Shown here one piece after another: positions 11,609 through 59,726 of a stretch of DNA of 64,000 nt. Position numbers and translations under genes: made by a program. Position 1 is the stretch's first letter. The number at the start of each line of letters is the position of its first letter. The notes under the pieces were generated by a model, which had not been told where the DNA came from, ran no database searches, and worked only from the letters and a program-made list of their open reading frames with translations. This DNA comes from Squalus acanthias (lineage: Eukaryota), in assembly GCA_030390025.1 (NCBI GenBank), contig CM059432.1:45634001-45698000 (forward strand). The letters are read 5' to 3'.

Positions 11609-12847
11609 ATGAATGCCGTTTATACTGTCTCACCTTGGTCCTCAGAATCGGACCACGATGAGCCCCAACACCAGCAACACCAGGCACACCAGCAGCACCA
11701 ACATCAACACCACCAACCTTCTTCGCAATCACCTGATGCTGCACAGGACAGAGGGCATCAGCGCAGGGCTGCACCACGACGGAGGTGATTCCCCCAACAC
11801 AGGGTATACAGGCAGAGGATGAGCTTCCTCAACATGACAGAGCAGCAGTGCCAAAGGAGGCTCAGGCTATCACGTTAGGTCATCGCAGACATTTGCAGAT
11901 TGCTGGAGCAAGACCTGCAGCCCAGAGTAGTGGGTGGACATGCCTTACCAGTGGCTGTCAAAGTCACCAGTGCCCTCAACTTCTTCGCCTCAGGATCCTT
12001 CCAGGGATCTGCAGCAGATATTTGCAGCATCTCACAGTCGGCCACCCACAGATGCATCACACAGGTCACCGATGCCCTGTTTGACAAGTCAGCCAATTAT
12101 ATCAACTTTGCCACTGATGAAGCCAGTGTTACTGAGCAAGTGTTCGGCTTTGCGGCTCTGGCTGGCTTCCCAAGGGTGCAAGGCACCATCGACTGCACAC
12201 ATGTGGCCATCAGGACACCCCATCATCACCCAGGAGTGTGTGTGAACAGCAAGGGCTTCCACTCCCTCAATGTGCTGCTCATCTCCAACCATAGGAAGAT
12301 CATCATGCACGTATGTGTCAAATTCCCTGGCAACTGCCATGACTCTTTCGTCCTGTGCCAGTCCACCCTCCCTCAGCTCTTCACTCCTCCAAACAGACTT
12401 ACTGGATGGCTGCTTGGAGACAAGGGCTATCCACTGAAGACGTGGCTCATGACACCCTTGAGGAGGCCAAGTACTGTGGCCAAGGAGAGATATAATGAAA
12501 GCCACGTTTCCACCAGATGTGTCATTGAGCAGACAATAGGCATGCTGAAAATGCGCTTCAGATGCCTTGACAGATCTGGAGGAGCCCTTCAGTACACACC
12601 AGCCAGGGTCTCCAGAATTGTCGTGGTCTGCTGCACCCTGCACAACATAGCGCAGCAACGAGGATTACCGTTGCATGAGGATCAAGACTCAGAGTGCAAA
12701 GCCTCTTCGGAGGAGCAGGAGGAACAAGCGGTCCAGATCCCACCAGCACCCGAGCACATTGCTGCCCGGGAGGCCACATCATGGCCAGATTTACTTAACT
12801 TCACGCATTACACCCATATGCTGCCATATGCTATGCCAGGTTCCTAA
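11609..12847 (+). pseudogene. Harbinger/HARBI1-family DDE transposase with premature stops
   Basis: ORF 11900-12847 has GTIDCTH, HDSF, LLGDKGY and IEQTIG; two in-frame stops between ATG 11609 and 11900, plus a probable C-terminal frameshift. Confidence 0.92.
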
Positions 12848-15757: not shown

Positions 15758-16637
15758 GGGGAAAAATTCAGTTGGTTAGCACCTCCCATTAGCGCCTGCA
15801 GAGGGCGATAATGGGGCGCTGATGCAGTTACGCCGGGGCGAGGCAAATCCAGTGGCTCATGGCAAATCCGGACCCCCCGTTGCGCCACCTGTATGAGGTA
15901 CCGCCGGGGACTTCAACGCCAGGCAGATTGTGACATTAGTGAGCGTGCAACGCTCACTGGGTACCCGATCTGCAAAATTCATTCTGGCCACTTACCTTTG
16001 CGCCTCGACCAGACAGCGACAGGGAGAGCAGGCACACAGCTGCAGGACGCAGGCTCCAGGGACATTATTTAAAGGCATCAGCATTAATCACTCGCAGATG
16101 TCAGAGCAGGTTAGTTTCAGTGGTTTCTTTTCAGTTTCAACTAGTGGATTACTTTGTATGAATAATTTCAAGGTTTTTTTATCAGCAGTGTTCTGGCAAG
16201 TGCAAAGTGCCTACATTTATTGTTCAAAGATTCAAACTGCTCTACTTGGCAACATTAATAGGGGCTGTACTGGCATGCCACCTCACCCTCCAGGATCTAC
16301 GGCAGAGAGAGTGTAGGCAGCCAGAAATACGGGAACATGTGCACAGAGGGATGAGGAGGGACATCGGGGCTCTCACCAGGAGGCCTTACCCTCCGAGGCT
16401 ATTCTGACAGCACCTCTTCTACCTTCAATTAAGCGAGGAGCAGCGTATTACAAAGCTCTGCATCACCAAGGTGTTGGTCACAGAACAGGCCTTTAAGACT
16501 TGATTTAGCGCCCCAATCATTTCTTTGAGCAGTGAGAATGAATTTTGCGTGCAGTCTAAAGCATTAGCGCCTAGCGTTAATTCGCAAACTTTTCTAAAGA
16601 TACCGCCTATTCCTGGGCTATAATGAATTTCTAGCCC
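15758..16637. mobile_element. Internally deleted non-autonomous Harbinger
   Basis: Ends GGGGAAAAATTC / GAATTTCTAGCCC, TSD TAT; retains a transposase N-terminal remnant (RPYPPRLF...LSEEQ) at about 16380-16485. Confidence 0.85.
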
Positions 16638-18006: not shown

Positions 18007-20543
18007 CTTGGCAGGGGCATGGCTGAGCCTTTGGCCAGCGACGGGGCAGAATGTATACAAGATGCTGGTATCCTCATACGTTATCCTCCTTCTCGCATGC
18101 ACCTCTCGCTTTCCTGGTCTCCCCTCACCACAACTCTACCCTTGTGCCTTCCTCATTTCACACTCCCAAGAAATGCAGCCTGCCCAGCCAGTGGTTGACC
18201 AAGAAGAGGGAGAGGAGAGAGAAGAAGAAGAAGAAACACTGTCACTCGATTTCACACTCTCAGCCACCAGCTCCTCAAGGTCAACCTGCAAGACCATTTG
18301 CAGTGTCCCCCACTGAAAGTCAGTAGCCTTCCACCAGCCATGCTGCAGCCACTGGGGTAGCACTGCGTGACATCAGTAGGATAGGCAAAGGTGAAAACAA
18401 TACAGTCACTAAGGGAATGCATAAGGGTGATGAGTTGATCTTTTGATGTCATATTGGATGGATAGATGTATAAAGTTGGATTGGAAATTTTGCTTTGTGG
18501 TGGCTTTTATTTCAGCATCGTGGCCAAGAGGACGCTGTGATGGTCAGTAACAGAGGGAAGGTAAGGTGTGGGGCTAATGTTGAAAGGGGAATTGCGATTG
18601 TGGTCACTGGGACCACAGGCGGATGGCTCCATCCCGAATGTCCCAGCCAGAAAGCGGCTGTCTGAGTTGCATCCTTCCTCCTGCTTCCTCCTCTTCGGCT
18701 TCCTCCCCTTCGGCTTCCTTCTCTTTGTAAGATTCTTAAAATTCACAGATCCCCCAAAGCTAGAAGAAAACCCTAAGGAAAATGACTTTGGACTCTTTCT
18801 AACAAGCTTCAGGATGATAAAATACGTATTGGGCCTAACAGAGGGAGATTCAAGGTCGGAAACCAAGATTTGGCATTTTTAAAAGGCATGCTGGGCCTGT
18901 AAAGGGAGAAAAGGCTGCAACAGGGAATGGGATCAACCTCTGTTAAGACAGTTTGGGTATTGGAGTAAATCAAATTGTCTGGGGAATTGTGTGACCTCAC
19001 TCAGCCCCTGTCAGACATTAACATCCTAACAATCGACCCACGGAGGAGCAGTCCTCACCCAAAACACAGGACCCATCCAAAACATGCATAATGCAAATCA
19101 CCTCGCCAACCTACATAGAAATCTTGGGCTCAGACAGGATACTCGAAACCTGAGTATAGCTATGACAATTAACTAGGAGCTCAACAGCTCATTGAATAAT
19201 CAGTACAGCATCCCAAAACCATTTTACACATTTCTAATCAAGTTACCATTAACGAGCCCACCCAAATCAAACAATAAACCAGGACTGATTTGGCGCGCAG
19301 ATTAGAAGGCCCCTCAAAGTATAATTGAAGGCCTGTTTTCTCAAGAAGTCAGTTCTCTCTGGAAGCAACACACAAGAAGAAACCGGAGCATCGAGACGGG
19401 GCAGCATTCTACCGTACACCCAAGGTCAACAGCTTCAGTGACCCAGGACATCATCGGACACATCGCGGCAACAAGAGCCTTACGAAACTACCAACAAAAT
19501 ATTACCACCAACCAACCTGGTAATATCGAGCCACCGCGACCAAAGAAAAACAACTCAGGAGAAAACCGAAGATTCGAAAGTTTTCCACTCTGCAATCTAT
19601 TCCTGACTTACCCCCGGGTAAGATTTTTACTTAAAAGGAACTCTGAACCCTATCTCTACAGAAGGAAAGTGGGTACTCACCCCATAAATCCAAAACGTAC
19701 CCTACCGCATCAGCGGACTCGCGAAGACTGACCAGCAGTCAAAGTCCTCTACCACGTCCGGGGTACGGCAGATGTACCAACACATCCAGCAAACCCCGAA
19801 ACCGCGAACCAGCTCAACTGTCAAGGATTCGTTTGGTGAGCATTATCCCTGGTCCTCTAGAGTTCAACTTCGCTAGGAAGTGGGATCGGGAGGGGTGAGG
19901 TATGTTCTACTGTATTTCCCTCGTATGTATTAAAATGTTCCCCATTTTTATTAGAGTATAAGATTGTTGTGTTGTATTTTCTTTCTTGAATAAAGATCAA
20001 AGTTTCTTGCACCAAAACCAGTTGTCTGCTGCACTTTTGTCACAACCCCCAAATAAGCCCAAGGTCTAGAATCAAGGGAGTGGGAGCGATTCGAACCGCT
20101 CATAAGTCAGTGGTGAGGCTGACCCACACACCACCCCCTACATCTTTGGCTTCCTCCCCTTCGGTTTCCTCCTCTGCTGTTTCTTCCGTTTCTGTGTCTT
20201 CCTCTTCCCTCTGTGAGCGGATGCTGTAAATCTGAAATGACAGCATAAAATGCTGGAAATACTCAGCAGGCCAGGCAGCATCTGGGTTTACCTGGCGTGG
20301 TTATGACCTAGCGCCGCGCTAGGGTCAAAGTTCGCCGTGGTGATGTTAATTCGGCATTTAATGCCAACTGATGTCACCACTACGTCTTTGCAGGGCGATA
20401 ATACTTAACAGCAGCACTAGTGGGCCTGGGAAAATGGAGTACACCGCGGAACCCACCACCAGCTGGTGGAAGAGTGACCGCTGCCGCTTTCTCGACATTA
20501 CACCGCGTTAACGGGTGGCACAAACCACGCGAATATCTAGGCC
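18007..20543. mobile_element. Truncated inverted copy of the non-autonomous Harbinger at 30710-32915, split by a solo LTR
   Basis: 18007-18720 and 20143-20543 match the reverse complement of about 32060-31340 and 31380-30710; right end GAATATCTAGGCC. Confidence 0.8.
18726..20142 (+). mobile_element. Solo LTR (1417 bp)
   Basis: TGT...ACA ends, TSD TCTT (18722-18725, 20143-20146), TATAAT near 19320, AATAAA near 19990. Confidence 0.88.
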
Positions 20544-25016: not shown

Positions 25017-26869
25017 ATGGCAAGCAACCAAGGGAGTGAGCACGAAGGTTCTCAGATACTACACTGGAGGCCTTGGCCGTGGCTGTGCAAGGAAGGCAGG
25101 TTGCAGGGGTGGCAGGAGGCCATCCAAAGCCATTTGCCGAAAGCTGTGGGAGGAGATAACTGACTCTGTCATGGCCACCAGTGTGGTCTCAAGGACCTGG
25201 ATCCAGTGCTGAGAAAGTTTAATAATCTCACACAGCAGGTCAAGGTGAGTGAAGACTTCAGCAAATGCCATTTCCCACTACCTGCACCACAAGCCTGACA
25301 CACTGCTCAATGCACCACATTCCCATCACTCACCTCCCAGCAATCTCTAACTATCACCACTCATACCTCACAATCATGGCTTCACTTCACCACCTTACCA
25401 CTGCTGCAACACTCACACCCACATCTCACACCTTGCACACACTGATAACTATTCAACTATGACCAGCACATCCCCCAAACACATTGCACCACACTCACTC
25501 ACACACTTCCCTTTCTCTTGCAGGCAAAGTTGGCACATAACAGGACGGATCAACAGCAGACCGGAGACAGTCAAGCCGCAATACAGAACCTCACCGACCT
25601 GGAGGAATAGTTGCTTGACATTATTGGAGGGGCAGTGACGGAGTCCGTGGCCACCGGAGAAGTTGAAGCCGTTGCAGATAATGATGGTATGGTCATTCCT
25701 AATCTTTCTTTCACATCCCACTTCCCCATCATCCCACAATCACTTCTCACTTACAAGCTGCTGATGGTGTATGCATGGATATCTTGATTACCCCACTCCC
25801 CTCATCACAACACGACCCTTGTGCCTTTCTGCTTTCAAATACCCAAAACTGCCAGGAGGCCAGTCTGTCCCTGAACTTGTGGAGGAGAGTGAAGGAGGAG
25901 ATGAAGACACATCGGCACGGCATCTGACACTTGCAGACACCAGCTCAGAAAATGGCACTGTGTGCAATTTAGAGGGTATCTGCACATGGTGAGGCACCGG
26001 GCACGAGTGGGCTGCAGCCAGGCCTGGGAGAAAGGGTAGCTCGAGTGCCAACTCCCCGGAGGGCGAGTTCGCACAGGAGTTCTGCTACACAGGACTCAGA
26101 GGGTGACCTTGATGGGGCAGCCTTCAGAAGAAGGGTGATGGGCATGCACACGGAAATGCTAGGTGCAATGGCAAGCCTGCCAGAGAGCCTCTTGTCAGTG
26201 TCAAGGAGCATGGAGGAGTTCAGCTCCAACATTGGGCGGGGCTTTGCACAGAGCTTGGAGCCCATGATTTCCAGGGTGGAAATGATGGACAACTCCAAGA
26301 GAGACCTTGTGGACTCAGCCATGATGTTGTGTGTGATGGGCGATGTCACGGCTTCCATTGCAGCACAGGCGGAAGCGACCCAATGTCTCACTGCTGCAGT
26401 GGAAGCTCAGACTGCTGCCATCATTGCTGGGTTTACGAGTCTCAAAAGGGGCTTGCAGGGTGTCGCAGCAGGCCAACAATCTGTCCTCCAACAGACTGCT
26501 AGGAATGCTGAGGCGCTGCCCCGGGATAGTGGCAGTGAGTCTGTGGAGCAAGAACCTGCTGTCCTCTCTCAGGATGACAATATTCCTACTCCCAACACTG
26601 TCACTCCACCATTGCCCTTGCCGCTACCTATCAGCCAGCCAGCCCAGACTGCTGCCGCCCAAGCCGAGATGGTGCAGTCTACAGCCGGGTCTTCTAGGCC
26701 CACAGCTGGTCGAGGTCATTCTGCAAGGCCATCTGTAGTCTCCCCCACTGAAAGCCAGCAGCCTTCCACCAGCCATGCTGCGGCCACTGGGGGAGCACTG
26801 CGTAGGAGCACTAGAGTAGGTAAAGGCACACAAACGACAGGCACTAAGGGAATGCACAAGGGTGATTAG
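25017..26869 (+). pseudogene. Three-exon Myb/SANT-like gene of element 3 (25017-25244, 25524-25686, about 25840-26869)
   Basis: LWEEITDSV...SRTWIQC*ESF motif, AKLAHNR exon 2, 274-aa exon-3 ORF; stops and frameshifts. Confidence 0.85.
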
Positions 26870-27042
26870 TTGATATTGTAATGATGATTGGAGTCAGATA
26901 AACTTATGATTTTTGTTTGGAATGTGTGTTTTATTGTGGCTCTCATTTCAGCTTTGTGCCCAGTAGGACGCTGTGATATTCCGTGATAGAGGGATCGTAT
27001 GATGGGGAACTGGTGAGCAATGGGGATCTGGGGTTTCATTCA

Positions 27043-28192
27043 CTAGAATCAAAGTTTGATGAGGCGTTCATGGACAGCCCGTCTGGAACTGGGATTTACT
27101 GCCTGCCTCCTCCCTCCCTCCTTTTCCTCGCCCTCTTCCTTGTCCTCTTCATCTTCTTAGTCCTCCTCTCCCTCCTCCTCCTCCTCCTGAGGTGGTTCCG
27201 CAATCCCTGGTGGCAAGGGCTGCACCCTCATGATGGCCAAATTGTGGAGCATGCAGCAAACCACCACAAAATGGGACACCTGCTCCACCAAGTCCTGGAG
27301 GGCTCCTCACCAGCAGTCAAGGCAATGGAACCATTGCCTGAGCACCCCGATGGTCTGCTCGATGGTGTTCCTGGTGGCAGCATGGCGGTCATTATTTGAG
27401 TGCTGTGCACGAGTGTTGGGGTTGTGGAGGGAAGTCATCAGCCAGGTGCAGAGTGGATAGCCCTTGTCTCCGAGCAGCCACCCTCAGGTTTGACACGGTG
27501 GCTGGAAGATTGCTGGCACAACGGACTGGCACAGGATGAAGGCATCATGACTACTGCCAGGATAGCGGGTATTCACCATCAGGACGTGGTCACACAACTG
27601 CACATTAAGTGACTGGTAGCCTTTGTGGTTACGGAACATTCTCAGGCTTGGTACACGTTGCTCACAAAGCCACGTGTGTGCGGTCTATGGCGCCCTGCAC
27701 CATGGGGAAGCCCACTATCCTGGTAAAGCCACATGCATGCTCGTCCTGCTTCTCTCTCTTCAGAAAGAAGACAAAGTAGTCCCCGTCTCCTGGAGTAGAG
27801 AACCTCTGTGACCTGGATGCAGCAATGGATGGCTGACTGGGAGATGTTAGCTATGTGTCCTGCTGCAGACTAGAAGGATCCACTGGCGAAGAAATTGAGG
27901 GCCACGGTGACCTTGAGGGCCACTGGGAGAGCCGTGGACACCCTGCTCTGAGGCTGCAGGTCTGTTTGCAGGAGATGGCAGAGTTCTGTGACCACCTCCT
28001 TGGTGAAGCGGAGCTAAGGTGGAGGTAAGAGAAGTGCTGTCGGAAGACACTACGTGGGCACGGCCCCTGGTTGAGAGCCCTCCTGGCCCTCCTTCGCCTC
28101 CCTCTGTGAGCATCTTCTCCTCTTCTTCGTTGCCTCCGCTTCCTCTCCCGAAGATAGTCGAGCACGAGGGGGACTGCAAGTAGAACCCCCAT
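27043..28192 (-). pseudogene. Harbinger DDE transposase pseudogene of element 3
   Basis: Fragments FRQHFSYLHLS, GAIDRTH, LLGDKGY and an acidic tail; multiple frameshifts. Confidence 0.88.
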
Positions 28193-30709: not shown

Positions 30710-32915
30710 GGGCGAAAAATTCAGGGGCTTTACGCCACTCGTTACCATCAAAAAATGGCGAAAGAGCGGCAGTGGCCGCTGGTGGCAGGTCCCGTGGCAT
30801 CCTCCATTTTGGACCTCCCCTTAGCACTGCCGGTAAGTATTAGTGCCCTGCAAAAAAAAATGGCGGATTGGTGATGTCAGTCAGCATGCAACCCCCACTT
30901 AACGTCACCACGGCCAACTTTGACCCGAGTGCTGAGTTCAGCGCTGGGTCATAACCACGCCAGGCAAACCCAGCGTGCAAAGAGACTGACAGAGGAGCTG
31001 TCAGCACCTCTTAAAGGGACACACACATCTTCCAGGTAAGTTTGCATTTAAACTCTTGGACTGGGATTTTTGACTTTATTGAAGTAGTGGCTTCCTGCAA
31101 TTGATGTTAAAAGATTTTTAAGTGTGTAGGGAGTGCTGCTGGATGCTTGCAAGCCTCGGAGGGTAAATGAAGGCCTCTGAGAAAACAGAAAATGCTGCAA
31201 ATATTCAACAGGTCAGGCAACATCCATGGAGAGAGAAACAGAGTTCACATCTCAGGTCAAGATGCAGCCTTACCTGCTGAGTATTTCCAGTATTTTATGC
31301 TGGCATTTCAGATTTACAGCATCCGCTCGCAGAGGGAAGAGGAAGTCACAGAAGAGGAGAAAGCTGAAGAGGAGGAAGCAGACGGAAGGATGTAACCCAG
31401 ACAGCCTTTTGTGGCCGTGATATCCGGGATGGAATCATCCGCCCGCGGTACCAGTGACCACAACCCCAATTCCCCTTTCAACATTTGTCCCACACCTTAC
31501 CTTCCCTCTGTTACTGACCATCACAACATCCTCTTGGCCACAATGCTGAAATAAAAGCCACCACAAAGCAAACTTTTCAATCCAACTTTATACATCTATC
31601 CATCCAACATGACATCAAGAAATCAACTCATCACCCTTATGCATTCTCTTAGTGACTGTCTTGTGTGTGCCCTTGCCTATCCTAGTGATGTCACACAGTG
31701 CTGCCCTCAGTGGCTGCAGCATGGCTGGTGGAAGGCTGCTGACTTTCAGTGGGGGACACTGCAAATGGCCTTGCTGGTCGACCTTGAGGAGCTGGTGGCT
31801 GGGAGTGTCAAATCAATCGTCTTCCTCTTGTTCTTCTTCACTCTTCTCTCTCTCTTCTTGGTCACCCACTGGCTGGGCAGGCTGCATTTCTTGGGTGTGT
31901 GAAATGAGGAAGGCACAAGGGTGAAGTTGTGGTGAGGGGAGGGCGGGAAAGCATGAGGTGCATGCAAGAAGTAGGATAACGTATGACGATAGCAGCATTT
32001 TGTATCCTTTCAGCCTCGCTGCTGGACAAGGGTTCAGCCATGCCCCTGCCAAGAATGGCCTGCACCGTCTCCTCCAAGGGGGTGAGGTGAGGCTAGGAAT
32101 GGGATGTGCCTCGTGATTGGTGCAGATTGTTGGTAGGTGAGTGATTGGGGGTCGTGTATTGAGCAGTGTGTGATGCTAGTGGTGCAGTTGGTAGGAGACA
32201 GCTTTTGAAGATGCATTCACTGACCTTGACTGGTGGGCTGAGGTCATGAAGCGTTTTTGGGCACTGGAGCCAGGTGGTGGGGGCGACACTGGTGGAAGTG
32301 ACGGCCTCGGTGATCTGGTCCCACATTGTTCTTTCTGGAGAGCCTCCTTGCCCCTGTGGGTAGAGGACCTCTCTTGCAGTGTTGACCCCCTGCACAAAGC
32401 TGGAGTGCTGCGTGCGAGACCTTGGGTGCCCCTTCCCTGGCTTGCTGAGCGATTTGTGTTCGTGCTAAAGCACTTTTCCAAATTTTTGAGGTTTGGAAGG
32501 GAATTCAGCTTTAAGTGCTGAAGAATCCCTTTAGGGACTTCTTTTTAATGGTAATTTTTTTATTGAAAGGCAGTAAGGGGTGAAAGCTGCATTTTTTCAC
32601 TGCATTGTAATTTTTATTAGTTCTGAATGCATTGTCCCTTTAATTCATAGCCCCTTTAATTGCCCACAATGCCTTGCGAACTCCACAGCCTCGCTCCCGC
32701 AGGCAGTAAGAAGCAGCAGCGCCGACTGTGGACGGGAACTTCGGGTTGGAAGCCTCCATTAACGCCACCAGGAGGGCGTTGCACGGTAAGTTAGCGCTGC
32801 GCTTCACATCGCCAACCCCCAGCGTGAATTTTTCAACGGTAGTGTTGCGGCTATTTTCAGCAGCCGCTAACTTGAGTTGCCAGTGACACATTTGGTGTAC
32901 ACGAATTTTTGCCCC
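30710..32915. mobile_element. Non-autonomous Harbinger with a degenerate Myb gene (-), transposase tail and internal Penelope fragment
   Basis: TIR GGGCGAAAAATTC / GAATTTTTGCCCC, TSD TTA; WDQITEAVTS...TWLQCPK motif at about 32225-32400. Confidence 0.88.
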
Positions 32916-37565: not shown

Positions 37566-39190
37566 TGTAAGGGGTGACGTGCGGCTCTGTGCTTAGCCTG
37601 GGTGCTAGTGCGGGGTTAGGCCTTGTTGCCTGTTCTGGTCTCCAGCCAGCCTGGTAACACTAGACACCTGTGAGTGGTTCGACCCACTCGCCCTTACGGT
37701 TCTGACACTGGACTTAGGTGCGAGAGCAATAATGCAGAGAAAACTCAGGTAGACCCGGTTGAATAGTGCGAAATGGAAAATCTTTATTGCATATTATTCA
37801 AGATTACGAGATACATGTCATAAGCACAGATTAATGACAGTACAATCTTACACACAGTTATGAAACTAATTTTAGGGAAACGAGGAGCGCACGACACATC
37901 GTAAAAGGGGACACACATTATAATTATCCTTAAAACTTAAACCCTCCCCTATCAATACCTGTCCTAATCTAGATTTGTAGGATCGAGACTCATGCTCACC
38001 ACTTGTGATAACTCGGAGAATTCCGAAACTCTGCTCGGATGTTTTTACCGCAGCACCTGACTATCCACGTGTTGATCAGGGGTCTCTGTACCCCACTTGT
38101 TTACTCGTTTCTGCTCCGGCTAGCAGGCTGGACCGTCTGCTGTCATGAAGATCTGTGTTGCCCTCGGAGTTCTGATACTACTCAAAAAAGAGTCTTCCTG
38201 TGCCCTACACCGGTTCGATAGAACTTGAAGAAAGGTCTTCCTGGGCCAGTTGTGGAGTAGCCGATAGAATTCAAAGAAGTGTTTATTCGACTTACAGGCG
38301 CGGTCGGGGCTTACTGACCGTGGCGATGCGTATTGTCGTCTTCTTCTCTTCTCATCTCATCTCATCTCCTCTCGGGCCTTCGGTTCCAACACCGTTTACC
38401 GACCCCTCGGGATGGTGCGCCCGCTTCCAGGCCTCACAGCCCAGTTCTCCACAGATCTTCGCGGCAAGCCATGAGGTTGATCCTAGCGGATCAGAGTCCA
38501 GAGCCGTCAGGCAAGAGAATAAAAGTTCAGCAGTCTTCCAGCGAGTCAAAGCAGCAAGAGAAAGATGGACGGTTGTACTTTACTGTTATAGTGCTGTAAT
38601 TCCTCTTTTCCCGCCCAATCTTAATGTCTATCTTTTGTCAGGGTTTTGGCGCTCAAACTTCTTGTATGGGGTGATCTCAGTCTTTAATGGGTTTCGGTGA
38701 CACTTGTAACTGTCTGAGTACCCGTTAATATTTCTCCCATTGTGGAACCGGCTAGTAGTCTCCCTGGAGGGGTTTTGGGGCTTCCAAATGCTTGCTGTGA
38801 GTACCCGCAAACGGCTCTCTCATCGTAGAGTCGTGGGGATTTTGCATATTAATGTCTTTGGATGGGTCCTTGATCGCTCAGTACAATAGCCCTTGTTTGC
38901 ACCTGGGAGACCGATTTCAGTATTCATGTTTAAAGTGTAAACCCATCGCGTTTTGTCATTATCTCATCATGTTGGATCTTTTCGATCTTGCACAAATGTT
39001 TATTGGAACGCCATCTTGTCTGCCTACTGAAAGTCTAGAACTTTCTACCACGAGGCGTGGCGGCCATTTTACAGGCTGTTTGTGTCCGTTTTGAAACCTG
39101 ACAGCATTCTGCTGAAATAAAGCTGTTTATACGAAACTATATGTCTCCTTCTTATTTTTATAAAATCGCGATAATTTTGCGAATTCTACA
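37566..39190 (-). mobile_element. Solo LTR (1625 bp), third family
   Basis: TGT...ACA ends, TSD TTAT (37562-37565, 39191-39194), minus-strand AATAAA near 37785. Confidence 0.85.
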
Positions 39191-40223
39191 TTATCTCCCC
39201 ACAGAATGAATCATTTTATAATTGTTTAATTCAAACTACCAACATTATCTTCTTCAGCATCACTTTCAGGAATGAGCTGTACACACCCTTTTATCACAAA
39301 ACAAACACCTTGCAACACATTTATGTCACATCTGAACTCATATGATTTATTGATGCTGTGATTTTGGGAGCATACTGGATTATTGCTTTCTTTGCTGTCT
39401 TTCCTTGAATGTGTTTAAAATATAAGCAAGATTTTTTTCCTGAAACAATCAATTATTTGGTTACTATGTTGGGGTTATTTGCTTGTTGGCAGGACCACTT
39501 CAATTATAAAAGAGGGCTGATTTTTGTCTCTCTTCTCCTCAGAATGTTCAGTTCCCAGTTTCAAAGGAGAGCTAGAAATTCATTATAGCCCAGGAATGGG
39601 CGGTATCAGTAGAAAAGTTGGAGAATTAGCGGCAGGCGTAAATGCTTTAGACAGCATGCAAAATTCGTGCTCAGTGATCAAAAAAGTGATTGGAGTCCTA
39701 ATTCAAGACTTAGGGGTAAAAATTCACTTGGTTGCGCCTCCCGTTAGCGCCTTAAGAGGGCGCTAATGGGGCGTTAAGCCGCTAACGCCCGGGCGCAGCG
39801 CTGTTTGCGCCGCTCGAGAACTTAACTTGAGATTGTGCGGCGGCGCTAAAACTTACCGCTGCGACCACCTGCGCGCGCAGATTGTGACGTCATTCCATGG
39901 TGCAACGCCCTTGGGGCGCCCCGGAGCGGAAATTGAGTGGCGCCCCCTGCCTTACCGCCTGGCGCTTCCAACGACCGGAAGACTGGAACGTTATCAATCG
40001 GTGTGGGGCTGGGGGGGGCGCTATTTAAAGGGGGCCTCTTCCTGTCTTTTTCTGTGGTCGACATTTATGCACCACTCGTTCTGAGAGAGAGAGAGAGATT
40101 CGGGAAGAGAGAGAGAGAGACTTCTACATTGACTCAACGCTTTGTGAGGTAGTTTTGCCTATTCATCCTAACTTTGTTGCTACTTTAGTTGCTGTACCTC
40201 ATTACTTTTCTGGCAAAGAGAAT

Positions 40224-41384
40224 ATGGGGGCTGCAATGATTGGGGGCGTCGTCCTGCTCCAGCTGAATCGGAGGATACAGAGACGCAGACAGAGAGTGGC
40301 AATGATGGCCAGACGGAGGAGGGCCATCAGGCGCATGTACAGGAGAGCTTACCCTCCCAGGGTATATCGTGAACAGCTCTCCTACATCCATATGTCCGAG
40401 GAGCTGTGTTTGCGGAGGCTGCGATTCAGCAAGGAGGTGGTCACTGAGCTCTGCCACCTGCTGCAGCCAGATCTGCAGCCTCAGCTGAGGTCCAGGACGT
40501 CTCTGTCGGTGGCAGTGAAGGTCACAGTGGCTTTGAACTTCTACGCCACTGGCTCATTCCAAGCTGCTGCTGGGGACCTCGCCAATATCTCCCAGTTTGC
40601 GGTGCATCGCTGCATCCGGCAGGTCACCAATGCCCTCTTCAGAAGGAGACGAGACTTCATCTCTTTCCCTATGACCCCAGACAAGCAGCGTGACCGTGCT
40701 CTGGGCTTTGCGAGGGTAGCGGGCTTCCCCATGGTGCAGAGCGCCATTGACTGCACGCATGTGGCTTTGCGTGCTCCGCGAGAGAATGCAGAGGAATTCA
40801 GGAACAGGAAGGGGTTCCATTTCTTGAATGTGCAGTTGGTCTGTGACCACAGACAGCTGATACTCGCTGTCAATGCCCACTATCCGGGCAGCTGCCACGA
40901 TGCTTTCATCCTGCGCCAGACTACTGTGGCAGAAGTTTTCGAGGCACCGCATCAGCCAGTTGGTTGGCTTCTGGGGGACAAGGGGTATGCATTGAGCACC
41001 TGGCTGATGACACCGCTCCGTACGCCAAACACCCCTGCTGAGCTGCGGTACAATGAAAGCCATCAAGCAACCAGGAACATTATTGAGCGCACAATCGGCG
41101 TGCTGAAACAACGGTTCCGCTGTCTGGACCATTCCGGAGGAGCCCTGCAGTACTCGCCTGAGCAAGTTTCGAACTTCGTAGTCGTGTGCTGCATGTTGCA
41201 CAACATGGCAATCCTCAGGACCCAGCCAATGCCACCAGGCCTTGTAGCACCACCAGAGGAGGAGGAGGAAGAGGAGGAAGAGGACGAGGACGATGATCAT
41301 CAGCAGCACCAAGGCGGGAGGGCGGCCCACAATGGTCAAACTGCAAGGGCCGTCCGTCAACGACTAATAGCAAGCCGCTTCTAG
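40224..41384 (+). CDS. Harbinger/HARBI1-family DDE transposase, 386 aa from the first ATG
   Basis: Uninterrupted ORF with AIDCTH, HDAF, LLGDKGY and IIERTIG catalytic motifs, an N-terminal HTH-like region and an acidic tail. Confidence 0.93.
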   Translation: MGAAMIGGVVLLQLNRRIQRRRQRVAMMARRRRAIRRMYRRAYPPRVYREQLSYIHMSEELCLRRLRFSKEVVTELCHLLQPDLQPQLRSRTSLSVAVKVTVALNFYATGSFQAAAGDLANISQFAVHRCIRQVTNALFRRRRDFISFPMTPDKQRDRALGFARVAGFPMVQSAIDCTHVALRAPRENAEEFRNRKGFHFLNVQLVCDHRQLILAVNAHYPGSCHDAFILRQTTVAEVFEAPHQPVGWLLGDKGYALSTWLMTPLRTPNTPAELRYNESHQATRNIIERTIGVLKQRFRCLDHSGGALQYSPEQVSNFVVVCCMLHNMAILRTQPMPPGLVAPPEEEEEEEEEDEDDDHQQHQGGRAAHNGQTARAVRQRLIASRF

Positions 41385-41678
41385 GGCCCCTGCCATTGCT
41401 ACAAACACTAATCAACCCAGCACGCAACCCCTAAGCCGGCCAAGGCACCAATAATTCCAAGCACCAGCCATGTATATTTTGAAAACAGAAACTTATTTAT
41501 TTTACAAACTCTGTGTGTGTCAATTCCTCATGACAAACTCATAGAAATAAACACAAAAAAACAGTCAATAACATAACTGGTTCTCACAACCTGGAGATAA
41601 TGTCCAAAACACTAAACAAAAGTTGGACCACGACCCTCGGCCTTTAATAAAAAAATGACCAGCATTTTGGCACACCTC

Positions 41679-43663
41679 CTACTTTTTGCCCTTCGAGGGT
41701 GATCTCCTTCCCTTGCGCACTTCCCCCCTTCCAACCCTACTGCTCCTCCGTAATGGTACCTCAGTGGCTGCAGCAAGGCTGGTGGAAGGCTGCTGCTCGT
41801 CAGACCCTGACACTGCAGATGCCCCTGAAGGACGGCCTCGACCACTTCTGGGCCTGGAGGGCCCGGCTGCAGACTGCACCAACTCTGCATGGGCGGCAGC
41901 AGTCTGTCCTACAGGCGGTGGCAAGTGCAGTGGAGAAGTGACAGTGTTGGCAGCAGGAATGCTGTCATCGTGAGAGAGGACAGCAACTCCCTGCTCGCCC
42001 GACACACTGGCACTCCCACGGGGCAGCACTTCAGCATCCGGAGCAATCTGCCGGAGAACAGATTGCTGGCCTGCTGCGGCGCGGTGACAGCCCCGGGGAC
42101 ATGTGCACGAACCATCGAGGTTGGCAGCAGTCTGTGCTCGCGTGGCCTCCATCTGAGTCTGTATGAGAGCAGTCAGAGGTGGGATCACGGCAGCCAGTGA
42201 CTGAATTGCAGCACTAAGCATTAGTGTGGCATCCGCCTGTGCTACAGCGAAGTGCTCCACACTCCTTGCCAGTGACTCAATGCATTCGGGCACCCTTCCC
42301 ACTGCACCCATGAGCTCAGTGTGCATGCCCACCGCCTGGGTGTTCATTTCTGCGATCAGCCGCTCCTCCTCTGCGTCCATTGCAGTAGGAGTGTCTGGCA
42401 TACTCTCCCTCTGGGGAGAAGGCCCCCGTTCTTCCCTACCCCCCCCATGGCGTTGCTGCAGCCCGCTGGGTCCTGGAGCTTCACCATCATCAGCCCCTTC
42501 CCCCCTGCTCCCCTCCGGGGAAGGCGTGTTCCCAGTGTGGGCATGGGCTTCCTCGGGAGAGGGTGGCACTGATGCTCCGGCTTCCTCTTCCTCCTCGGCT
42601 GCAGCATCACTCCCAGTGGCAGCTTGAGGGCCCGTCTCCTCAGCTGGTGAATCACCATCTGAAAGCAGGGAGGTACAAGAGTGGCTTTAGCGTGAGGACA
42701 GGGTGGCAGTAAGGGAGGAATAAGTGCAGCGAGTTAGCAAGTTGGATTGAAAGTGTCAAAGGCTGGTATTGTGAGGGACAAGTGGAAGGACAGAGGACAA
42801 AAAGGTGATGACCTTACCATTGCTGTCCACAACGGGGTCGGCGTCTCCAGTGGCGACGGGACCGATCACCCGGCTTGCCACAATCCTGTGGACGCGCTCC
42901 TCCAGATCGCTGAGGGGTTGCAGCTGAAGCCGCCCTCCACCCGTCCGTTGCTGCTGTCTCCGATTATGAGCCAGCTTAGCCTGCAAGAAAAAGGACAGCA
43001 TCTGAGTCAATATACTGCCATGGTCTTGCCTGATGTGCCTCCCATAGGTGAATAGCCCTTACAATATACAGCCATGGTCTTGCCTGATGTGCCTCCCATA
43101 GGTGAATAGCCCTTACAATATACAGCCATGGTCTTGCCTGATGTGCCTCCCATAGGTGAATAGCCCTTACAATATACAGCCATGGTCTTGCCTGATGTGC
43201 CTCCCATAGGTGAATAGCCCTTACAATATACAGCCATGGTCTTGCCTGATGTGCCTCCCATAGGTGAAGAGCCCTTACTGTATGCAAAGTGTAGAATGTG
43301 TGTGTGTGTTTGATGAAAGGGCCATAGGTGTTGGATGAGTGTTGTGCATTGGGGTTTTAAGACCCTCTGGCCATAGAGTGAGGTTGAGATGGAGGGATGG
43401 AGAGGTATTGAGAAAAAGCCACTCACCCTGACGACCCGAGTGAGGTCGCTGAACTTTTTGCAGCATTGAACATGGGTCCTGGGCACCATGCTCCTGGAGG
43501 AGACGCTCTGAGCCACCTCCCTCCACACTCTTCTGAACTCGCGTGGCAAAGGCCTCCTGCCACTCTCCGGGAACAGCATACATCGTCTGCGCTCCACTGC
43601 GTCAACCAGAGCATCCAAGGCCCGCTCGGTGAAGCGATGAGCGCGTTCTCTCACCCTCTCCAT
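41679..43663 (-). CDS. Myb/SANT-like DNA-binding protein of element 4; exons 43663-43427, 42980-42818, 42658-41679; 459 aa
   Basis: RFTERALDAL...WREVAQSV...RTHVQCCKKF motif; GT-AG introns with matching phases (0, 1) give a 1380-nt open frame. Confidence 0.85.
43009..43278. repeat. Minisatellite, 5 x 54 bp, in intron 1 of the Myb gene
   Basis: Unit AATATACAGCCATGGTCTTGCCTGATGTGCCTCCCATAGGTGAATAGCCCTTAC, near-identical copies. Confidence 0.97.
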
Positions 43664-44240
43664 GCTTGGCAGCAAAATGGATTACAGGTCTCTCCAGGCC
43701 GAGATTCAAGGCTGCAATGAGCAGGGTGTGGCTGGGGAGCAAGTGGCCCCCCCCCCGCTTTAAGAAGTGGCCGGCGCCAGTGTGTCTGTGTTCCCTCGCT
43801 AACTGGCAGCAGCTGCGCTGCGCTCGTGCGCTGAGTTAGCGCCTCACTCCTAGGCCTTTGCGCCTTAAGACAGGTGTGCCGTGCCTGCTTTAGCGCTCCA
43901 CTCACCTCCCGGGGCGGTAAAAGTGAAGTTTCCTGTCAGTGCCGATAATTAGCGCCAGGCGCTAATATTTGCGTCCGGACGATATTTGCGCCCCAAATGG
44001 GGCGCGACCTAATTTCTACCCCTTAAAGCCCAAGCTCATTGGCGTTACACTCAAAGGGTGGACCAATATCGGGTGCAGTCTAATCGCAAGTCATGATTGC
44101 CACAGGCTTTTTTCAGTACTTAAAGGGGAGGTTCTTTGATGCTGCAGAACCTCATTCTCAGCATTGCTGGCTGTGCAGCTGCCTCAGCAAGCAGGAGCTG
44201 AACAATGAGAAGGAGCCAGAGGACTGAAGCAGCTGTACGC

Positions 44241-44873
44241 ATGGCAGATCCATGCCCCAGGGAGAGAGCCCGTAGATTCTGCGATCAAGCGTTGGAGGTG
44301 CTGGTGTTCGCTGTGGAGAGACGGAGGGCGGTGCTCTACCCGGCAAGTGGCAGGAGACCCTCGCTGCAAGTCTTCCGAACCATGTGGAGAGAGGTAGTGC
44401 AGCAGGTCTTGGGCAGCACTGTGGTCCCAAGGACCCACACACAGTGCAGGAAAAAATTTTACGACCTCACTCGGGTGGTCAGGGTGACTGAATGCTTCAA
44501 CAAATGCTACATATCACCATCTGTACCACAATCTTCACACACTGCCCAAAGCACCACACTCCCAGCACTCGCCCTCCAACAATCTCTACATAGCAACACT
44601 CACACCCTCATCTCACACCTTGCACACAATGCCAGCTATTCAACTATGGCAGGCACATCATCCAAACACATTGCTCCACACTCACTCACACACATTCCTC
44701 TCTCTTGCAGGCTAAGGTGGCTCACAACAGGAGGGAGCAGGAGCGCACAGGCGGGGGACAAACCGACACCCAACCACTGTCTGCGCTGGAGAATCGAGTG
44801 CTGCAGATTATTGGGCGCCAGGTGGTGGGCGCTGTGGCCACCAGTGATGTTGACCCCCTGAGGGACAACAATG
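44241..44873 (+). pseudogene. Myb/SANT exons 1-2 of the host Harbinger; exon 3 mostly deleted
   Basis: MADPCPRERARRFCDQALEVL...QCRKKFYDLTRVVR, an intron, then AKVAHNRREQERTGGG. Confidence 0.85.
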
Positions 44874-46441
44874 GTATGTTCATCCCTACTCCTTCTTCTC
44901 ACATCCCACTTCCACCAGCCCTGCTGCAGCCACTGGGCCAACACTTCAAAGGTTATTTTAATCTTTGGCTCAGAACAGCCGGGGGGCACCTTAGGTGGAG
45001 CAGTTGTGGGTGGCACCGCTGGAAGTCTGCCTCAATCATGCAAAATTACCCAGTCCTCCCAATTTAGGATGGGATTTGGATCTATGGCCTACTGCAAATG
45101 CAAAGAGAGGTTCCACTCCGTTACTCTTCTGCTGGCATAGCAGTCCTAAGTGAAAAAGAAAATGTCAATTGCAAGCACCATTTCACGTTAAATTAGAGAA
45201 ACAAAATAAGAGGAACTACCTGCAAACTGGTGGAACGTAAGTTCAGGACAGATGTCAGGAAGCTCTTCTTCATGCAAAGAGTGTGTAATACCTGGAATGG
45301 TGTTCTGGATTGGGTAGTGGAGGCAGAAACTCTGGAAATCATTCAACGCGCTAGGGGAACTGTAGATTTCTGTTTAAGGATGAGCTAGATGGGCCAACTG
45401 CTCTCTTTCATCTGTACTTTGTCACCTTTGTGAAAACAGTATCAACTGCATTTGTGTAAATGTGTGCATATCCAAATATTTAAAAACCGCATTCTCTGGC
45501 CATGGACCTTCTCAACTAGCTGTGGAATATCGTTGCAGTGGAGCAATGTGAAGACTGTATTGTTGGCCTGTATGGGTGCCAGCTGCTGGATAAAATGCCA
45601 GCCATTTTCAAAGCTACGTCGGCCATTTACTTTCCTGGAACACTTCTGCAGCTGCCTCCAGTGTGAAACAAACACCGCCAGAGCTGGTACTTCTTGCCAC
45701 CAGAGGAAGACGTGTTATCTGTTTCACCTTAGAGCCATGTTGAAAAAAATCAGGGCTGCTGGTGGCATGAGCCGTAAGGTAAATGCAACATAAGATTTAC
45801 AAAATAGTGAATGAACCAATAAATAAAGGACACTTATTTGATTACGGTTATATGGAGCAATTTGCAATTTACAAGAATAAACATTAATCGTTTATTGAAC
45901 ATATCATAGATAAGAGGTAGATAAAATGATATTACTTGACAATTAATGTGTTAAATCACTCAAACTTTACTCTTGTGGTTTCTCAGACTGCTTGACGTCA
46001 CATAATTTATTGCTGTGTTGTAACTCCATCTTGTCTGTATGCATTAATTCTATCTTTAGCATGCGGTTTTCGTGGCTTGTGACTATATTTCGCTCAGTCA
46101 GTTTGGAAATGCAAATAGCTTGCATGTTACCTTTTCACTCAAGAAGCTTTCAGTGTGAGTTCAGTCGTTACCAACATCAAGTAAAGAGGTGAGGGTGAAG
46201 AGCTGTGCTCGAAGAGCGATAGGGCTCTGGCACTGTACCACTGAATTTTCCGACCTGTTCTCCCTACAAGCTTGGAGGGTAGAATCAGAGAATTTACCCG
46301 ATGATTTTTGTTACTAGTACAAAGTTCTAATTTACAACAAATGCAATGTTGAAACTGTTACAGAAATGGTTCCTGAAATGTAGAAAATGCTGTGCCACAA
46401 ACTGGTAGAATGTAGTTTTGTGATCATGGTTCCTCACACCA

Positions 46442-46880
46442 GGGGGTAGTTTTCCGAATTTGGCATTCTGTAAACGCATATTAGAAATTTGGGCATGCTA
46501 ACACCTCTGCCACAGCATATGTTTGTTTCACACTGGAGGCAGCTGCATAAGTGTTCCAGGACTGTAAATGGCCGTCTGTAGCCTTGAAAATGGCTGCCAA
46601 TTTTGTTCCAGCTGCCAGCAGCCATAATGGCCAACAATACAGTTTTCACATTGCTTCCCTGCAAAGATCTTGCACAGCCAGATGGGAAGGCCCACAGCCA
46701 GAGAGTGGAGATTGCAAGTGTTATTTTTAAACTTCTGGATATTTAAATGTTTTCCATTTAAATTAACAGTCAGAGAATTGTGCGTATAACGTGTCCAAAT
46801 TTCCGGTCTGCACTCCCAGCAGGAGAGCCTCGCCGCAAGTATGGCTCCCTGCCGGAAGTGCAAAGTTGAAGAATTGCTCC
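46442..46880. mobile_element. Old MITE-like element; inverted partial copy at about 45460-45675
   Basis: Imperfect inverted ends GGGGTAGTTTTCCGAATTTGGCA / TGCAAAGTTGAAGAATTGCTCC; interior matches 45460-45675 in reverse. Confidence 0.55.
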
Positions 46881-48121: not shown

Positions 48122-48847
48122 GGGGGAAAATTGAGTCGCGCACCCTTTGGGGCGCTAACTTCGCCGGGGCACTACTTTCCTGAAAGAATTAGCGCCCCCG
48201 TGGCCGAAATTCTTCGGTAGCACCCCAAGAGGGAAGCGGGGCTCTACTGGAAGCGCCCCGCCTCCCTCTTGTGGCGCTGCGAGGGAATATCGTGGCGCTA
48301 CGTGCTGCAGGCCTTCCTCCCCTTCTTAAAGGGGAGCGGCCTTGCGCAGCGCGACCCGGGGCCCAGCTGGGCCATCAGGGATCGGAGTGCCGGCAAAAGA
48401 GCCCGGCACTCAAGAGAAGTGCCGGGCTCACGGAGCGCAGCCAGCACTCCGGAGGGGGGCTGGTCAGGAGGCCGGGGATGGCAACGGGGGCAGGTGCTGG
48501 CAGGCGGCCAGCAACAAAAATGACCTCCCGGCACCTCGCCTTTAATTAGCGCCACCCCGGCTGCAGGTAGGCCCCCCTGACCCCATCGGACATAGCGTCC
48601 GGCGGTAAGTCAGGGGGCGCTACCGAAGATCGCGGCTGGGGCGCGAGCGGGGCGCTGCGCACGGTGATGACATCATCGCCGGCGGCGCAGCACCACGGGG
48701 CGCTAACGGTTACTGCCACCGCTAACCTCCTGCTGAATTTCGCGGGAAGCGTTGGCGGCACTGCGCCCGGGCGCTAGTTGCTTTGCGCCCCGTTAGTGCC
48801 CTCTTAGGGTGCTAACGGGAGGCGCAAAGCAACCGAATTTTTAGGCC
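48122..48847. mobile_element. Harbinger MITE related to element 4, inserted in CR1
   Basis: TSD TTA (48119-48121, 48848-48850); both subtermini align with the ends of 39713-44022. Confidence 0.88.
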
Positions 48848-58797: not shown

Positions 58798-59726
58798 CTA
58801 GGTCCTTCATTAATTATATCTTGTAATCATAACAAATGTAATCTCAGCAAATGTTGGCTGCTCACTCAATAGCTCGTTGCGAGAGTTTCTAAAGGTTAGC
58901 CTCATCACTCTACTCAATGCTGATCACCTATACAATGTCAAAGAAGCAGAAATACTTACATTTATAGAGTACCATTATCACATTAAAATGTCTCAACGTG
59001 TTTCACACAATAAATTCCTTTTAGAGTGCAGTGATTGTTGTTAAGAAGACAAACATAACATTTATTTTGGCAGTTAATCTTATCTGGGCTTGTTTGGAAG
59101 TTTATCTTCAAAGTGAAATATCCTTAGTAAATTAGAAGATTTTGCTGTTGAGTTAATAGCAGGTCTACAATAAATGATGGTGTTCCTTATAGTCCACCAC
59201 ACTCACATTCTTGTGAAGCCAATAATAGTGAATAATCATTGCCGTGTGACCAATGTATGTGCATTCCTGAAGATATGAATGAACCTGTCAGCCTTCTGGG
59301 ATAACTTCCTAAACACAAGAACTGGACATGGTACCTGACTTATACCAGCAAAATTATTCTTTGGTATCTAGAATGAGCCCACGGCTCAAAAGTGATAATT
59401 GTTGCAAATTTTACGTCTCGACTGCGCATTAGGAGTAACTCAGGACCTCTCTAAATTAGGTGCCATCATTTGACACAGTTTAGTTATTGCCTCCCTACTG
59501 GGCCTGAGCCCCCAAAAACACTATTCCTCTGACATATCCCGATAATTGAGATATAATCAGCATGCACTTTCATGGGGGTAATGGCCTGGTCCAGGCTCTT
59601 CTCTTATTATTGTTACATTATCCTTTCATTCTCCTCCTCTACTACAAAGGCAGTTGCCATAAAATCATTGTCACATCAAACCAGCAAACTTTAGTCCAAC
59701 AGCAGTATTAACTCCTGGTGTTGTTA

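What the first reader, a model, noticed from the sequence alone, without database searches (positions are those of the whole stretch)
39713..44022. Coding-intact two-component Harbinger transposon
Seen: TIRs, an exact TTA TSD, an open 386-aa transposase with the DDE residues, and a three-exon Myb/SANT gene that splices into an open 459-aa frame the ORF track misses. Known: Harbinger transposition needs both proteins, and most vertebrate copies are decayed. Caveat: SAID and FHFLN differ from the G-x-ID and FHSLN seen in element 2 and could impair activity. It is a candidate recently active or easily revived system, with a cognate MITE 4 kb away.
Basis: partly seen in the sequence, partly recalled or inferred. 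Interest (0 to 1): 0.72.

Follow-up and report, generated by a model that had tools for sequence, protein, structure and literature searches.

The report
Slightly damaged young shark Harbinger transposon
This is a complete two-gene cut-and-paste transposon with both genes unbroken, one copy of a very abundant and likely young family in what is likely a shark genome, but it carries its own change next to the enzyme's cutting site, so it is likely an ordinary idle copy and not the family's active one.

Summary
The anatomy is confirmed: a 4,310-bp PIF/Harbinger element (39713-44022) with TTA duplications, 12-bp TIRs, a 386-aa DDE transposase and a three-exon Myb/SANT gene of 459 aa. Intron 2 is skipped exactly in contigs of two probable RNA runs. 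The family is very abundant in the host species (roughly thousands of copies, inferred). Its transposase variants are 23 synonymous to 6 non-synonymous, so the family likely multiplied under selection on the enzyme. This copy is a poor candidate for the active one. S173, three residues before catalytic D176, is G in 98-100% of family depth in four runs. F200 and a newly noticed Myb R68C (R in 42 of 50 homologs) are off-consensus and unresolved. The nearby MITE is only about 70% identical, so it is related but not cognate. Activity and insertion polymorphism were not shown. Intact vertebrate Harbingers are already in print (269 in a sea krait), and this scan reported the same kind of element many times elsewhere in this genome. 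Verdict: new member of a known kind; interest 0.3.

The parts
39710..39712 (.). Left target-site duplication TTA
39713..39724 (+). Left TIR, 12 bp, 11/12 match to right TIR
   Evidence: contigs from other insertion sites enter here
39713..40030 (+). Left subterminal region, GC-rich, CpG o/e 1.16, repeated GGCGC motifs (likely Myb-binding sites; inferred), TATA-like TATTTAA near 40022
40224..41384 (+). DDE transposase, 386 aa, single exon, D176/D252/E288
40740..40742 (+). Codon S173: private change of this copy; family reads G
   Evidence: (A>G in 98%, 100%, 100%, 100% of depth in X2, X9, X8, X10)
40821..40823 (+). Codon F200 (S in 104 of 112 homologs); private or family-wide not resolved
41385..41678 (.). 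Spacer between the convergent genes with AATAAA on both strands (+41546, +41646, -41496)
41679..42658 (-). Myb/SANT gene exon 3 (acidic low-complexity part, likely helical middle, basic tail)
42659..42817 (-). Intron 2, 159 nt, GT-AG; skipped exactly in contigs of X17 and X19
42818..42980 (-). Myb/SANT gene exon 2
42981..43426 (-). Intron 1, 446 nt, GT-AG, holding a 5 x 54-bp tandem array (43008-43278)
   Evidence: 45 of 50 homologs align across the junction; no joint listed
43427..43663 (-). Myb/SANT gene exon 1 (DNA-binding domain), ATG at 43663
43460..43462 (-). Codon C68 in the predicted recognition helix (R in 42 of 50 homologs); status in the family unresolved
44011..44022 (-). Right TIR
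44023..44025 (.). Right target-site duplication TTA
39569..39712 (+). Terminal arm of an older Harbinger into which the element inserted
   Evidence: 126/151 with paralog 16638-16488, running across the empty site
44026..44873 (+). Rest of the older host Harbinger, with Myb exons 1-2 (44241-44483, 44711-44873)
48122..48847 (-). 726-bp Tourist-type MITE with TTA duplication, about 70% identical to the element's ends; related family

Best explanation
This is a full-length PIF/Harbinger DNA transposon with both reading frames open, inserted at a TTA inside an older Harbinger; it belongs to a likely young, high-copy family of a likely shark genome, and this copy likely has a weakened or dead transposase because of its private G173S change, so it would move, if at all, with proteins from sister copies. 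Mechanism of the family (established for Harbinger3_DR and Ping/Pong, as described in PMC2836001 and PMC9179366; inferred here): the spliced Myb/SANT protein binds the ends, binds the transposase and brings it into the nucleus. The D176/D252/E288 RNase H-type core cuts at the TIRs and inserts at TWA, giving a 3-bp duplication. The same proteins likely mobilise internally deleted derivatives. Shown here: anatomy, nesting, splicing of intron 2 in family contigs of probable RNA runs, high abundance, synonymous excess among family variants, private S173. Inferred: protein functions, loss of activity through G173S, copy number, age.
For: Anatomy. Model pLDDT 89.9; D176 lies in strand 171-182 and E288 in helix 271-297; weak Foldseek matches (best E 4e-3) are mostly integrases and DDE transposases. 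The spliced Myb aligns end to end with sawshark protein P0123 (residues 5-456, 37%, E 5e-85), and 45 of 50 homologs span junction 1. Splice sites are conserved in two in-window paralogs. Intron-2 joint 42658>42818 appears in X17 and X19 but not in X11, which has an unspliced contig there. Abundance: in X2 summed depth is 2.1e5-7.4e5 over the coding bins against 5.87 on the unique flank; dividing by 31 for maximal contig overlap gives at least about 1,200-4,000 copies (my inference; the tool warns that depth is no copy number). The seven X11 contigs listed inside the element differ at 28 of 2,193 letters plus one gap. Of 29 listed transposase variants, 23 are synonymous and 6 not, pN/pS 0.08. 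S173 is G in 98-100% of depth in four runs, G in 94 of 116 homologs, and S in 0 of 51 homologs that keep the triad. CpG o/e is 0.58 in this transposase against 0.31-0.40 in three older in-window copies.
Against: No assay shows that G173S impairs catalysis. It is a small substitution, A occurs there in 7 of 116 homologs, and this copy matches 152 of 164 conserved columns, third best of 105 sequences. The RNA label of X17 and X19 is a guess, and no DNA run of those two organisms was laid on intron 2. No intron-1 joint was listed. The 16 listed Myb variants are 5 synonymous and 11 non-synonymous (exon 3: 1 of 8 synonymous), so there is no sign of selection there (only 40 of 224 rows were shown). 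Thirteen of the 29 transposase variants come from one alternative contig; the other 16 are 11 synonymous and 5 not. Youth is in sequence only: 2-4 private changes in about 985 nt would be millions of generations at the epaulette-shark rate of 7e-10 (PMC10587355), if that rate applied.
Confidence: 0.7

Rival explanations
1. This very copy is autonomous and still mobile: G173S, F200 and C68 are tolerated.
For: Both frames are open, the DDE triad is kept, TIRs and TSD are intact; 152 of 164 conserved columns match; several long contigs match with 0 differences over 157-225 nt; CpG depletion is mild.
Against: S173 is private and next to the catalytic Asp. F200 and C68 replace residues kept in 104/112 and 42/50 homologs, each by one transition. 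Open frames are expected by chance in 7-41% of copies at 0.5-1% divergence.
Confidence: 0.15
2. The whole family is long extinct and only looks young because sharks mutate slowly; it expanded before several species split.
For: Runs of seven organism labels hold 0.46-0.90 of the sampled words. The same pair of subfamily variants appears in X2, X8 and X9. Shark mutation and substitution rates are low (PMC10587355, PMC8455134). Contigs fall across the 99+, 95-99 and 90-95% classes.
Against: Depth is orders of magnitude higher in organism A than in the runs of C, D, E and F, which fits a lineage-specific burst, although coverage differs between runs. The element is younger than the Harbinger it interrupts. 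Spliced family contigs exist in probable RNA runs. This rival overlaps with the best explanation for this copy and differs only on the family's timing.
Confidence: 0.3
3. A domesticated gene pair like HARBI1/NAIF1 or MSANTD.
For: Both genes are intact; homologs are labelled 'putative nuclease HARBI1'; variants are mostly synonymous.
Against: Intact TIRs and TSD, nested insertion, very high copy depth, other flanks in other contigs, and a private non-synonymous change at a conserved site.
Confidence: 0.02
4. The family was horizontally transferred among distant hosts, which would explain about 98-99% identity in runs lacking the flank.
For: X8, X9 and X11 hold the element in long clean contigs but show no depth on the unique left flank.
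Against: Low coverage of related sharks or trace DNA gives the same picture. The same subfamily pair occurs in organism A and in those runs, and X10 and X11 hold traces of the host Harbinger family too. All top homologs are cartilaginous fishes. Organism names are coded, so host distance is unknown.
Confidence: 0.08

Closest known systems
PIF/Harbinger group of the PHIS superfamily (Han et al. 2015, PMC4482050; passages read)
   Same: TWA target duplication, two ORFs (DDE transposase plus Myb/SANT), short TIR starting with G, length near the stated 4.1-kb average.
   Different: Nothing in anatomy; this family is not shown to be catalogued (Repbase/Dfam could not be searched).
Harbinger3_DR / Harbinger3N_DR of zebrafish (Sinzelle et al. 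2008; not read, seen only as cited in PMC2836001, PMC9179366, PMC9392472)
   Same: Two-protein vertebrate system; the Myb protein binds ends and transposase; non-autonomous derivatives.
   Different: That system was rebuilt from consensus and shown to move in human cells; nothing is assayed here. The Myb protein here is 459 aa with a long low-complexity third exon.
Harbinger-Snek of sea kraits (PMC8437027; passages read)
   Same: A high-copy vertebrate Harbinger burst with intact two-gene copies (269 in Laticauda colubrina), RNA reads over both ORFs and deletion variants.
   Different: Attributed to horizontal transfer from a marine donor; the family here has many relatives across sharks and rays and several subfamilies.
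Sawshark and sevengill-shark 'putative nuclease HARBI1' and 'uncharacterized' gene models (P0001, P0002, P0123, P0130)
   Same: Same transposase and Myb lineages; the Myb proteins align across both splice junctions.
   Different: At most 66% (transposase) and 37% (Myb) identical, so a distinct family; the labels are automatic and do not mark them as transposon genes.
Rice Ping/Pong and mPing (PMC2836001; passages read)
   Same: Two proteins required; TWA target; MITE mobilisation; cross-mobilisation between related elements was shown.
   Different: Plant elements with demonstrated activity.

Membership tests
PIF/Harbinger (Han et al. 2015) | 3-bp TWA target-site duplication | tested here: met
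   TTA both sides; paralogous empty site has one copy
PIF/Harbinger (Han et al. 2015) | DDE transposase ORF | tested here: met
   PF13359 E 1e-38; D176, D252, E288
PIF/Harbinger (Han et al. 2015) | Separate Myb/SANT ORF | tested here: met
   PF13873 E 6e-8; spliced 459 aa aligns end to end with P0123
PIF/Harbinger (Han et al. 2015) | Short TIRs starting with A or G | tested here: met
   12 bp, 11/12, starts with G
PIF/Harbinger (Han et al. 2015) | Phylogenetic placement of the DDE domain in the PIF/Harbinger rather than the Nuwa cluster | not tested
NuwaI | CWG target duplication | tested here: not met
   TTA
NuwaII | C|TNA|G target | tested here: not met
   Target reads C-TTA-A; the MITE reads C-TTA-T
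Autonomous, currently active element | Coding sequence free of private changes at conserved sites | tested here: not met
   G173S private in four runs
Autonomous, currently active element | Spliced expression | tested here: inconclusive
   Intron-2 joint in two probable RNA runs, family level only; intron-1 joint not listed; no reads in raw RNA run X21 of another organism
Autonomous, currently active element | Insertion polymorphism at this locus | tested here: inconclusive
   Empty-site joints in X17 and X19 may come from paralogs of the repeated host element; no bridging contig was listed for X2
Autonomous, currently active element | Excision and integration | not testable with these tools
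   Needs a cell assay
Domesticated HARBI1/NAIF1/MSANTD genes | Single copy, no TIRs or TSD, syntenic | tested here: not met
   TIRs and TSD present; very high depth
Cognate MITE (deletion derivative of this family) | Ends near-identical to the autonomous element | tested here: not met
   212/304 and 219/315 identity; closer deletion derivatives appear as joints 40098>43683 and 40172>43749 in other runs

The most novel reading that the evidence does not exclude
The family, not this copy, is a still-transposing native vertebrate Harbinger that has persisted inside a shark lineage as successive subfamilies under strong purifying selection on the transposase (pN/pS about 0.08). It would give a natural two-protein, TWA-targeting vertebrate transposon that needs no deep reconstruction, and a case of long vertical persistence of a cut-and-paste element.
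Probability: 0.3. Interest if true: 0.55.

Novelty: new member of a known kind. Interest (0 to 1): 0.3.

Why it matters
As a single copy it matters little: it is one of likely thousands, and it carries its own lesion. The family matters somewhat more. Harbingers were reported as undetected in elephant shark (PMC9179366), and all DNA transposons together make up 1.58% of the grey reef shark genome (PMC12498223), whereas this genome is crowded with them (transposase or Myb remnants at eight or more places in 64 kb). My six literature searches (open-access library only) listed no paper devoted to a young shark Harbinger family. If the family-majority proteins move DNA in cells, they would add a vertebrate two-component transposon to the Harbinger3_DR and Ping/Pong systems.

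Tried and rejected
No whole genome is held, so copies could not be counted or aligned directly. No RNA holder was listed on record among the indexed runs. Raw RNA run X21 (organism F, about 12% of the run read) gave 9 partial reads on a GA microsatellite only; it is one sample of another organism and says little. Word-indexed protein searches with Myb exon 1 (longer proteins) and exon 3 found nothing at E<=0.001; the exhaustive search found 53. No solved structure is related by sequence (best E 0.042, low-complexity), and no Foldseek match reached E<=0.001. The TIR+TSD pair as stand-alone proof was rejected: shuffles give 0-2 such pairs. Empty-site joints 39707>44024 and 39708>44022 as proof of polymorphism were rejected, because the host element is itself a repeat (depth 3.6e4-4.2e4 in X2). 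Reading the missing row at 40822 as 'F200 is family-wide' was rejected. Rows are listed only where a contig shows the change away from its end, about 30 letters in the rows I checked (my reading of the table). 40802-40831 is a 30-letter overlap between contigs, and X9 record 29 has 5 differences of which 3 are listed, so two unlisted differences likely lie in the stretch that holds F200. A compensated frameshift in Myb residues 313-327 was considered; the DNA alignment with the 26-kb paralog does not favour it. Lack of flank depth in X8, X9 and X11 was not taken as evidence of absence. The look-up of earlier findings by sequence gave nothing. No complex prediction was run, since a pass would not change the verdict. 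Supplements of the papers were not opened; family lists in PMC4482050 or PMC9179366 could hold related elements.
Full report
Observation. The element runs from 39713 to 44022 with TTA on both sides and 12-bp TIRs matching at 11 of 12 positions. It is the only such pair among 84,652 TWA-flanked pairs 3-6 kb apart, but 20 local shuffles gave 7 such pairs in all, so this signal alone is not decisive. Two other results fix the ends. Removing the element and one TTA gives a sequence that aligns without gaps, 126 of 151, with a paralog at 16638-16488 across the junction. Contigs of other runs enter at 39712/39713 from other flanks. The target is the terminal arm of an older Harbinger that starts near 39569 and whose Myb exons lie at 44241-44873, so this is a nested insertion, younger than its host element.

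Genes. The transposase is 40224-41384, 386 aa, with D176, D252 and E288 and Pfam DDE_Tnp_4 at E 1e-38. The model has mean pLDDT 89.9, with D176 in strand 171-182 and E288 in helix 271-297. Foldseek gives only weak matches, mostly integrases and transposases, none at E<=0.001. The Myb gene splices over GT-AG introns of 446 and 159 nt to 459 aa without a stop. The splice sites sit at the same positions in two paralogs in the window. The spliced protein aligns from residue 5 to 456 with a sawshark gene model (37%, E 5e-85), and 45 of the 50 homologs that cover residue 68 run across junction 1. Intron 2 is skipped exactly (42658>42818) in contigs of X17 and X19, whose RNA label is a guess. X11 has an unspliced contig there and no joint; no intron-1 joint was listed. 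These contigs represent the family, not necessarily this copy.

Host and family. The search gave 330 transposase homologs, of which 120 were listed; the top ones are sharks and rays, the best 66% identical. The genome is therefore likely a shark's and the family is distinct from those in the protein collection. Twenty runs under seven organism labels hold 0.46-0.90 of the sampled words. In X2 the unique flank has depth 5.87 and the coding bins 2.1e5-7.4e5. Dividing by 31 for maximal contig overlap gives at least about 1,200-4,000 copies, half that if the flank contig is one haplotype; this is my inference, and the tool warns that depth is no copy number. Ends are deeper than the middle, and joints 40098>43683 and 40172>43749 show deletion derivatives at 90% likeness or better. 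The seven X11 contigs listed inside the element differ from it at 28 of 2,193 letters plus one gap. Of the 38 rows, 9 lie outside the coding region and were left out. The other 29 are 23 synonymous and 6 non-synonymous, pN/pS 0.08. Thirteen of them come from one alternative contig (12 synonymous), and the rest are 11 to 5. The sites are filtered by share and likeness and are not independent, but the excess indicates selection on the transposase while subfamilies diverged. The 16 listed Myb variants are 5 synonymous and 11 non-synonymous, with exon 3 at 1 of 8 synonymous, so no such signal is seen there (40 of 224 rows were shown).

This copy. Only two listed transposase differences are near-private in X2: a silent one at 40415 and 40740, which makes S173. 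The family letter gives G in 98% of depth in X2 and 100% in X9, X8 and X10. G stands there in 94 of 116 homologs and in 43 of 51 that keep the triad, none of which has S. F200 replaces an S kept in 104 of 112 homologs. Its codon lies in a 30-letter contig overlap where differences cannot be listed, and X9 record 29 has two unlisted differences that likely lie there, so its status is open. New here: Myb residue 68 is C where 42 of 50 homologs and the host element have R, one transition at a likely former CpG. It was not among the 40 rows shown although X17 record 16 spans it, which leans towards family-shared but does not settle it. A 3-nt in-frame insertion at 42439 is missing from all three contig runs. 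Against this reading, the transposase matches 152 of 164 conserved columns, third best among 105 sequences. Under neutral decay, both frames would stay open in 26-41% of copies at 0.5% divergence and 7-17% at 1% (assumed indel rates), so many open copies are expected in a family this large.

Age. CpG o/e is 0.58 in this transposase and 0.31-0.40 in three older copies in the window. Two to four private changes in about 985 nt is 0.2-0.4%. At 7e-10 per generation (epaulette shark, 95% CI 1.4-14.1e-10; PMC10587355, passages) that would be millions of generations; the host's rate is unknown, so this only warns that young in sequence need not mean recent in time. Polymorphism at this locus is unresolved. 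X2 holds the flank (39200-39597, no differing letter, one gap) but no bridging contig was listed, and the empty-site joints in X17 and X19 can come from paralogs of the repeated host element.

MITE. 48122-48847, 726 bp, TTA on both sides, about 70% identical to both ends of the element. It is a related family; cross-mobilisation is possible by analogy with Ping/Pong (PMC2836001) but untested.

Mechanism. The two-protein scheme is taken from the literature on Harbinger3_DR and Ping/Pong as described in PMC2836001 (passages), PMC9179366 (passages and Introduction) and PMC9392472 (passages). Sinzelle et al. 2008 was not read. Its application here is inference from anatomy. The most likely state of this copy is passive or weakened, complemented in trans by sister copies if the family is still active.

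Comparison and novelty. The element meets the PIF/Harbinger features listed in PMC4482050 (passages) and fails the NuwaI and NuwaII target rules; tree placement was not tested. Intact, transcribed vertebrate Harbingers are in print: 269 intact copies in Laticauda colubrina (PMC8437027, passages). Harbingers are noted in whale shark and grey reef shark (PMC8455134, PMC12498223; passages) and were undetected in elephant shark (PMC9179366). Six searches of the open-access library (listings seen) showed no paper devoted to a young shark Harbinger family; subscription papers and Repbase/Dfam were not searchable. This scan has 385 notes matching 'Harbinger' in the same genome, several on intact copies with private lesions; these are unchecked AI notes and are not counted as support. 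Final: new member of a known kind, interest 0.3.

Noticed in passing
window 430-1743, 3209-3418, 11801-12724, 14880-15095, 16249-16485, 18258-18416, 25111-28010, 31706-31804, 44259-44872, 59335-59550: Transposase or Myb remnants of many other Harbinger elements: at least eight places in 64 kb, several families.
   Followed up: partly
window 39569-39712 and 44026-44873: Older Harbinger interrupted by the element; it keeps Myb exons 1-2 open, and no exon 3 or transposase was detected next to it.
   Followed up: partly
window 43008-43278: Five copies of a 54-bp unit, 99% alike, inside Myb intron 1; the unit resembles a single-copy stretch of the host element's intron 1.
   Followed up: no
window 15758-15840: Isolated left end of a related Harbinger, 81% identical over 83 nt.
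   Followed up: no
window 37567-39190: A 1.6-kb stretch bounded by TG...CA, solo-LTR-like; observed only.
   Followed up: no
window 42078-42122 (minus strand; Myb residues 313-327): Short segment that departs from the 26-kb paralog and reads somewhat better in a shifted frame; a compensated frameshift is possible, but the DNA alignment does not favour it.
   Followed up: partly
window 43427-43663 against X17 record 16: Eight listed differences in Myb exon 1 (237 nt) against 2 in 244 and 5 in 230 nt in two transposase contigs of the same run; fits faster change of exon 1, but the contigs differ and numbers are small.
   Followed up: partly
runs X8, X9, X10, X11: The family is present at about 98-99% identity in runs under other organism labels at low depth and without the unique flank; related species at low coverage, trace DNA or transfer cannot be told apart.
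   Followed up: partly
window 45475-46722: Inverted arms of 121 nt, 77% complementary, 1 kb apart: possibly another MITE-like element.
   Followed up: no
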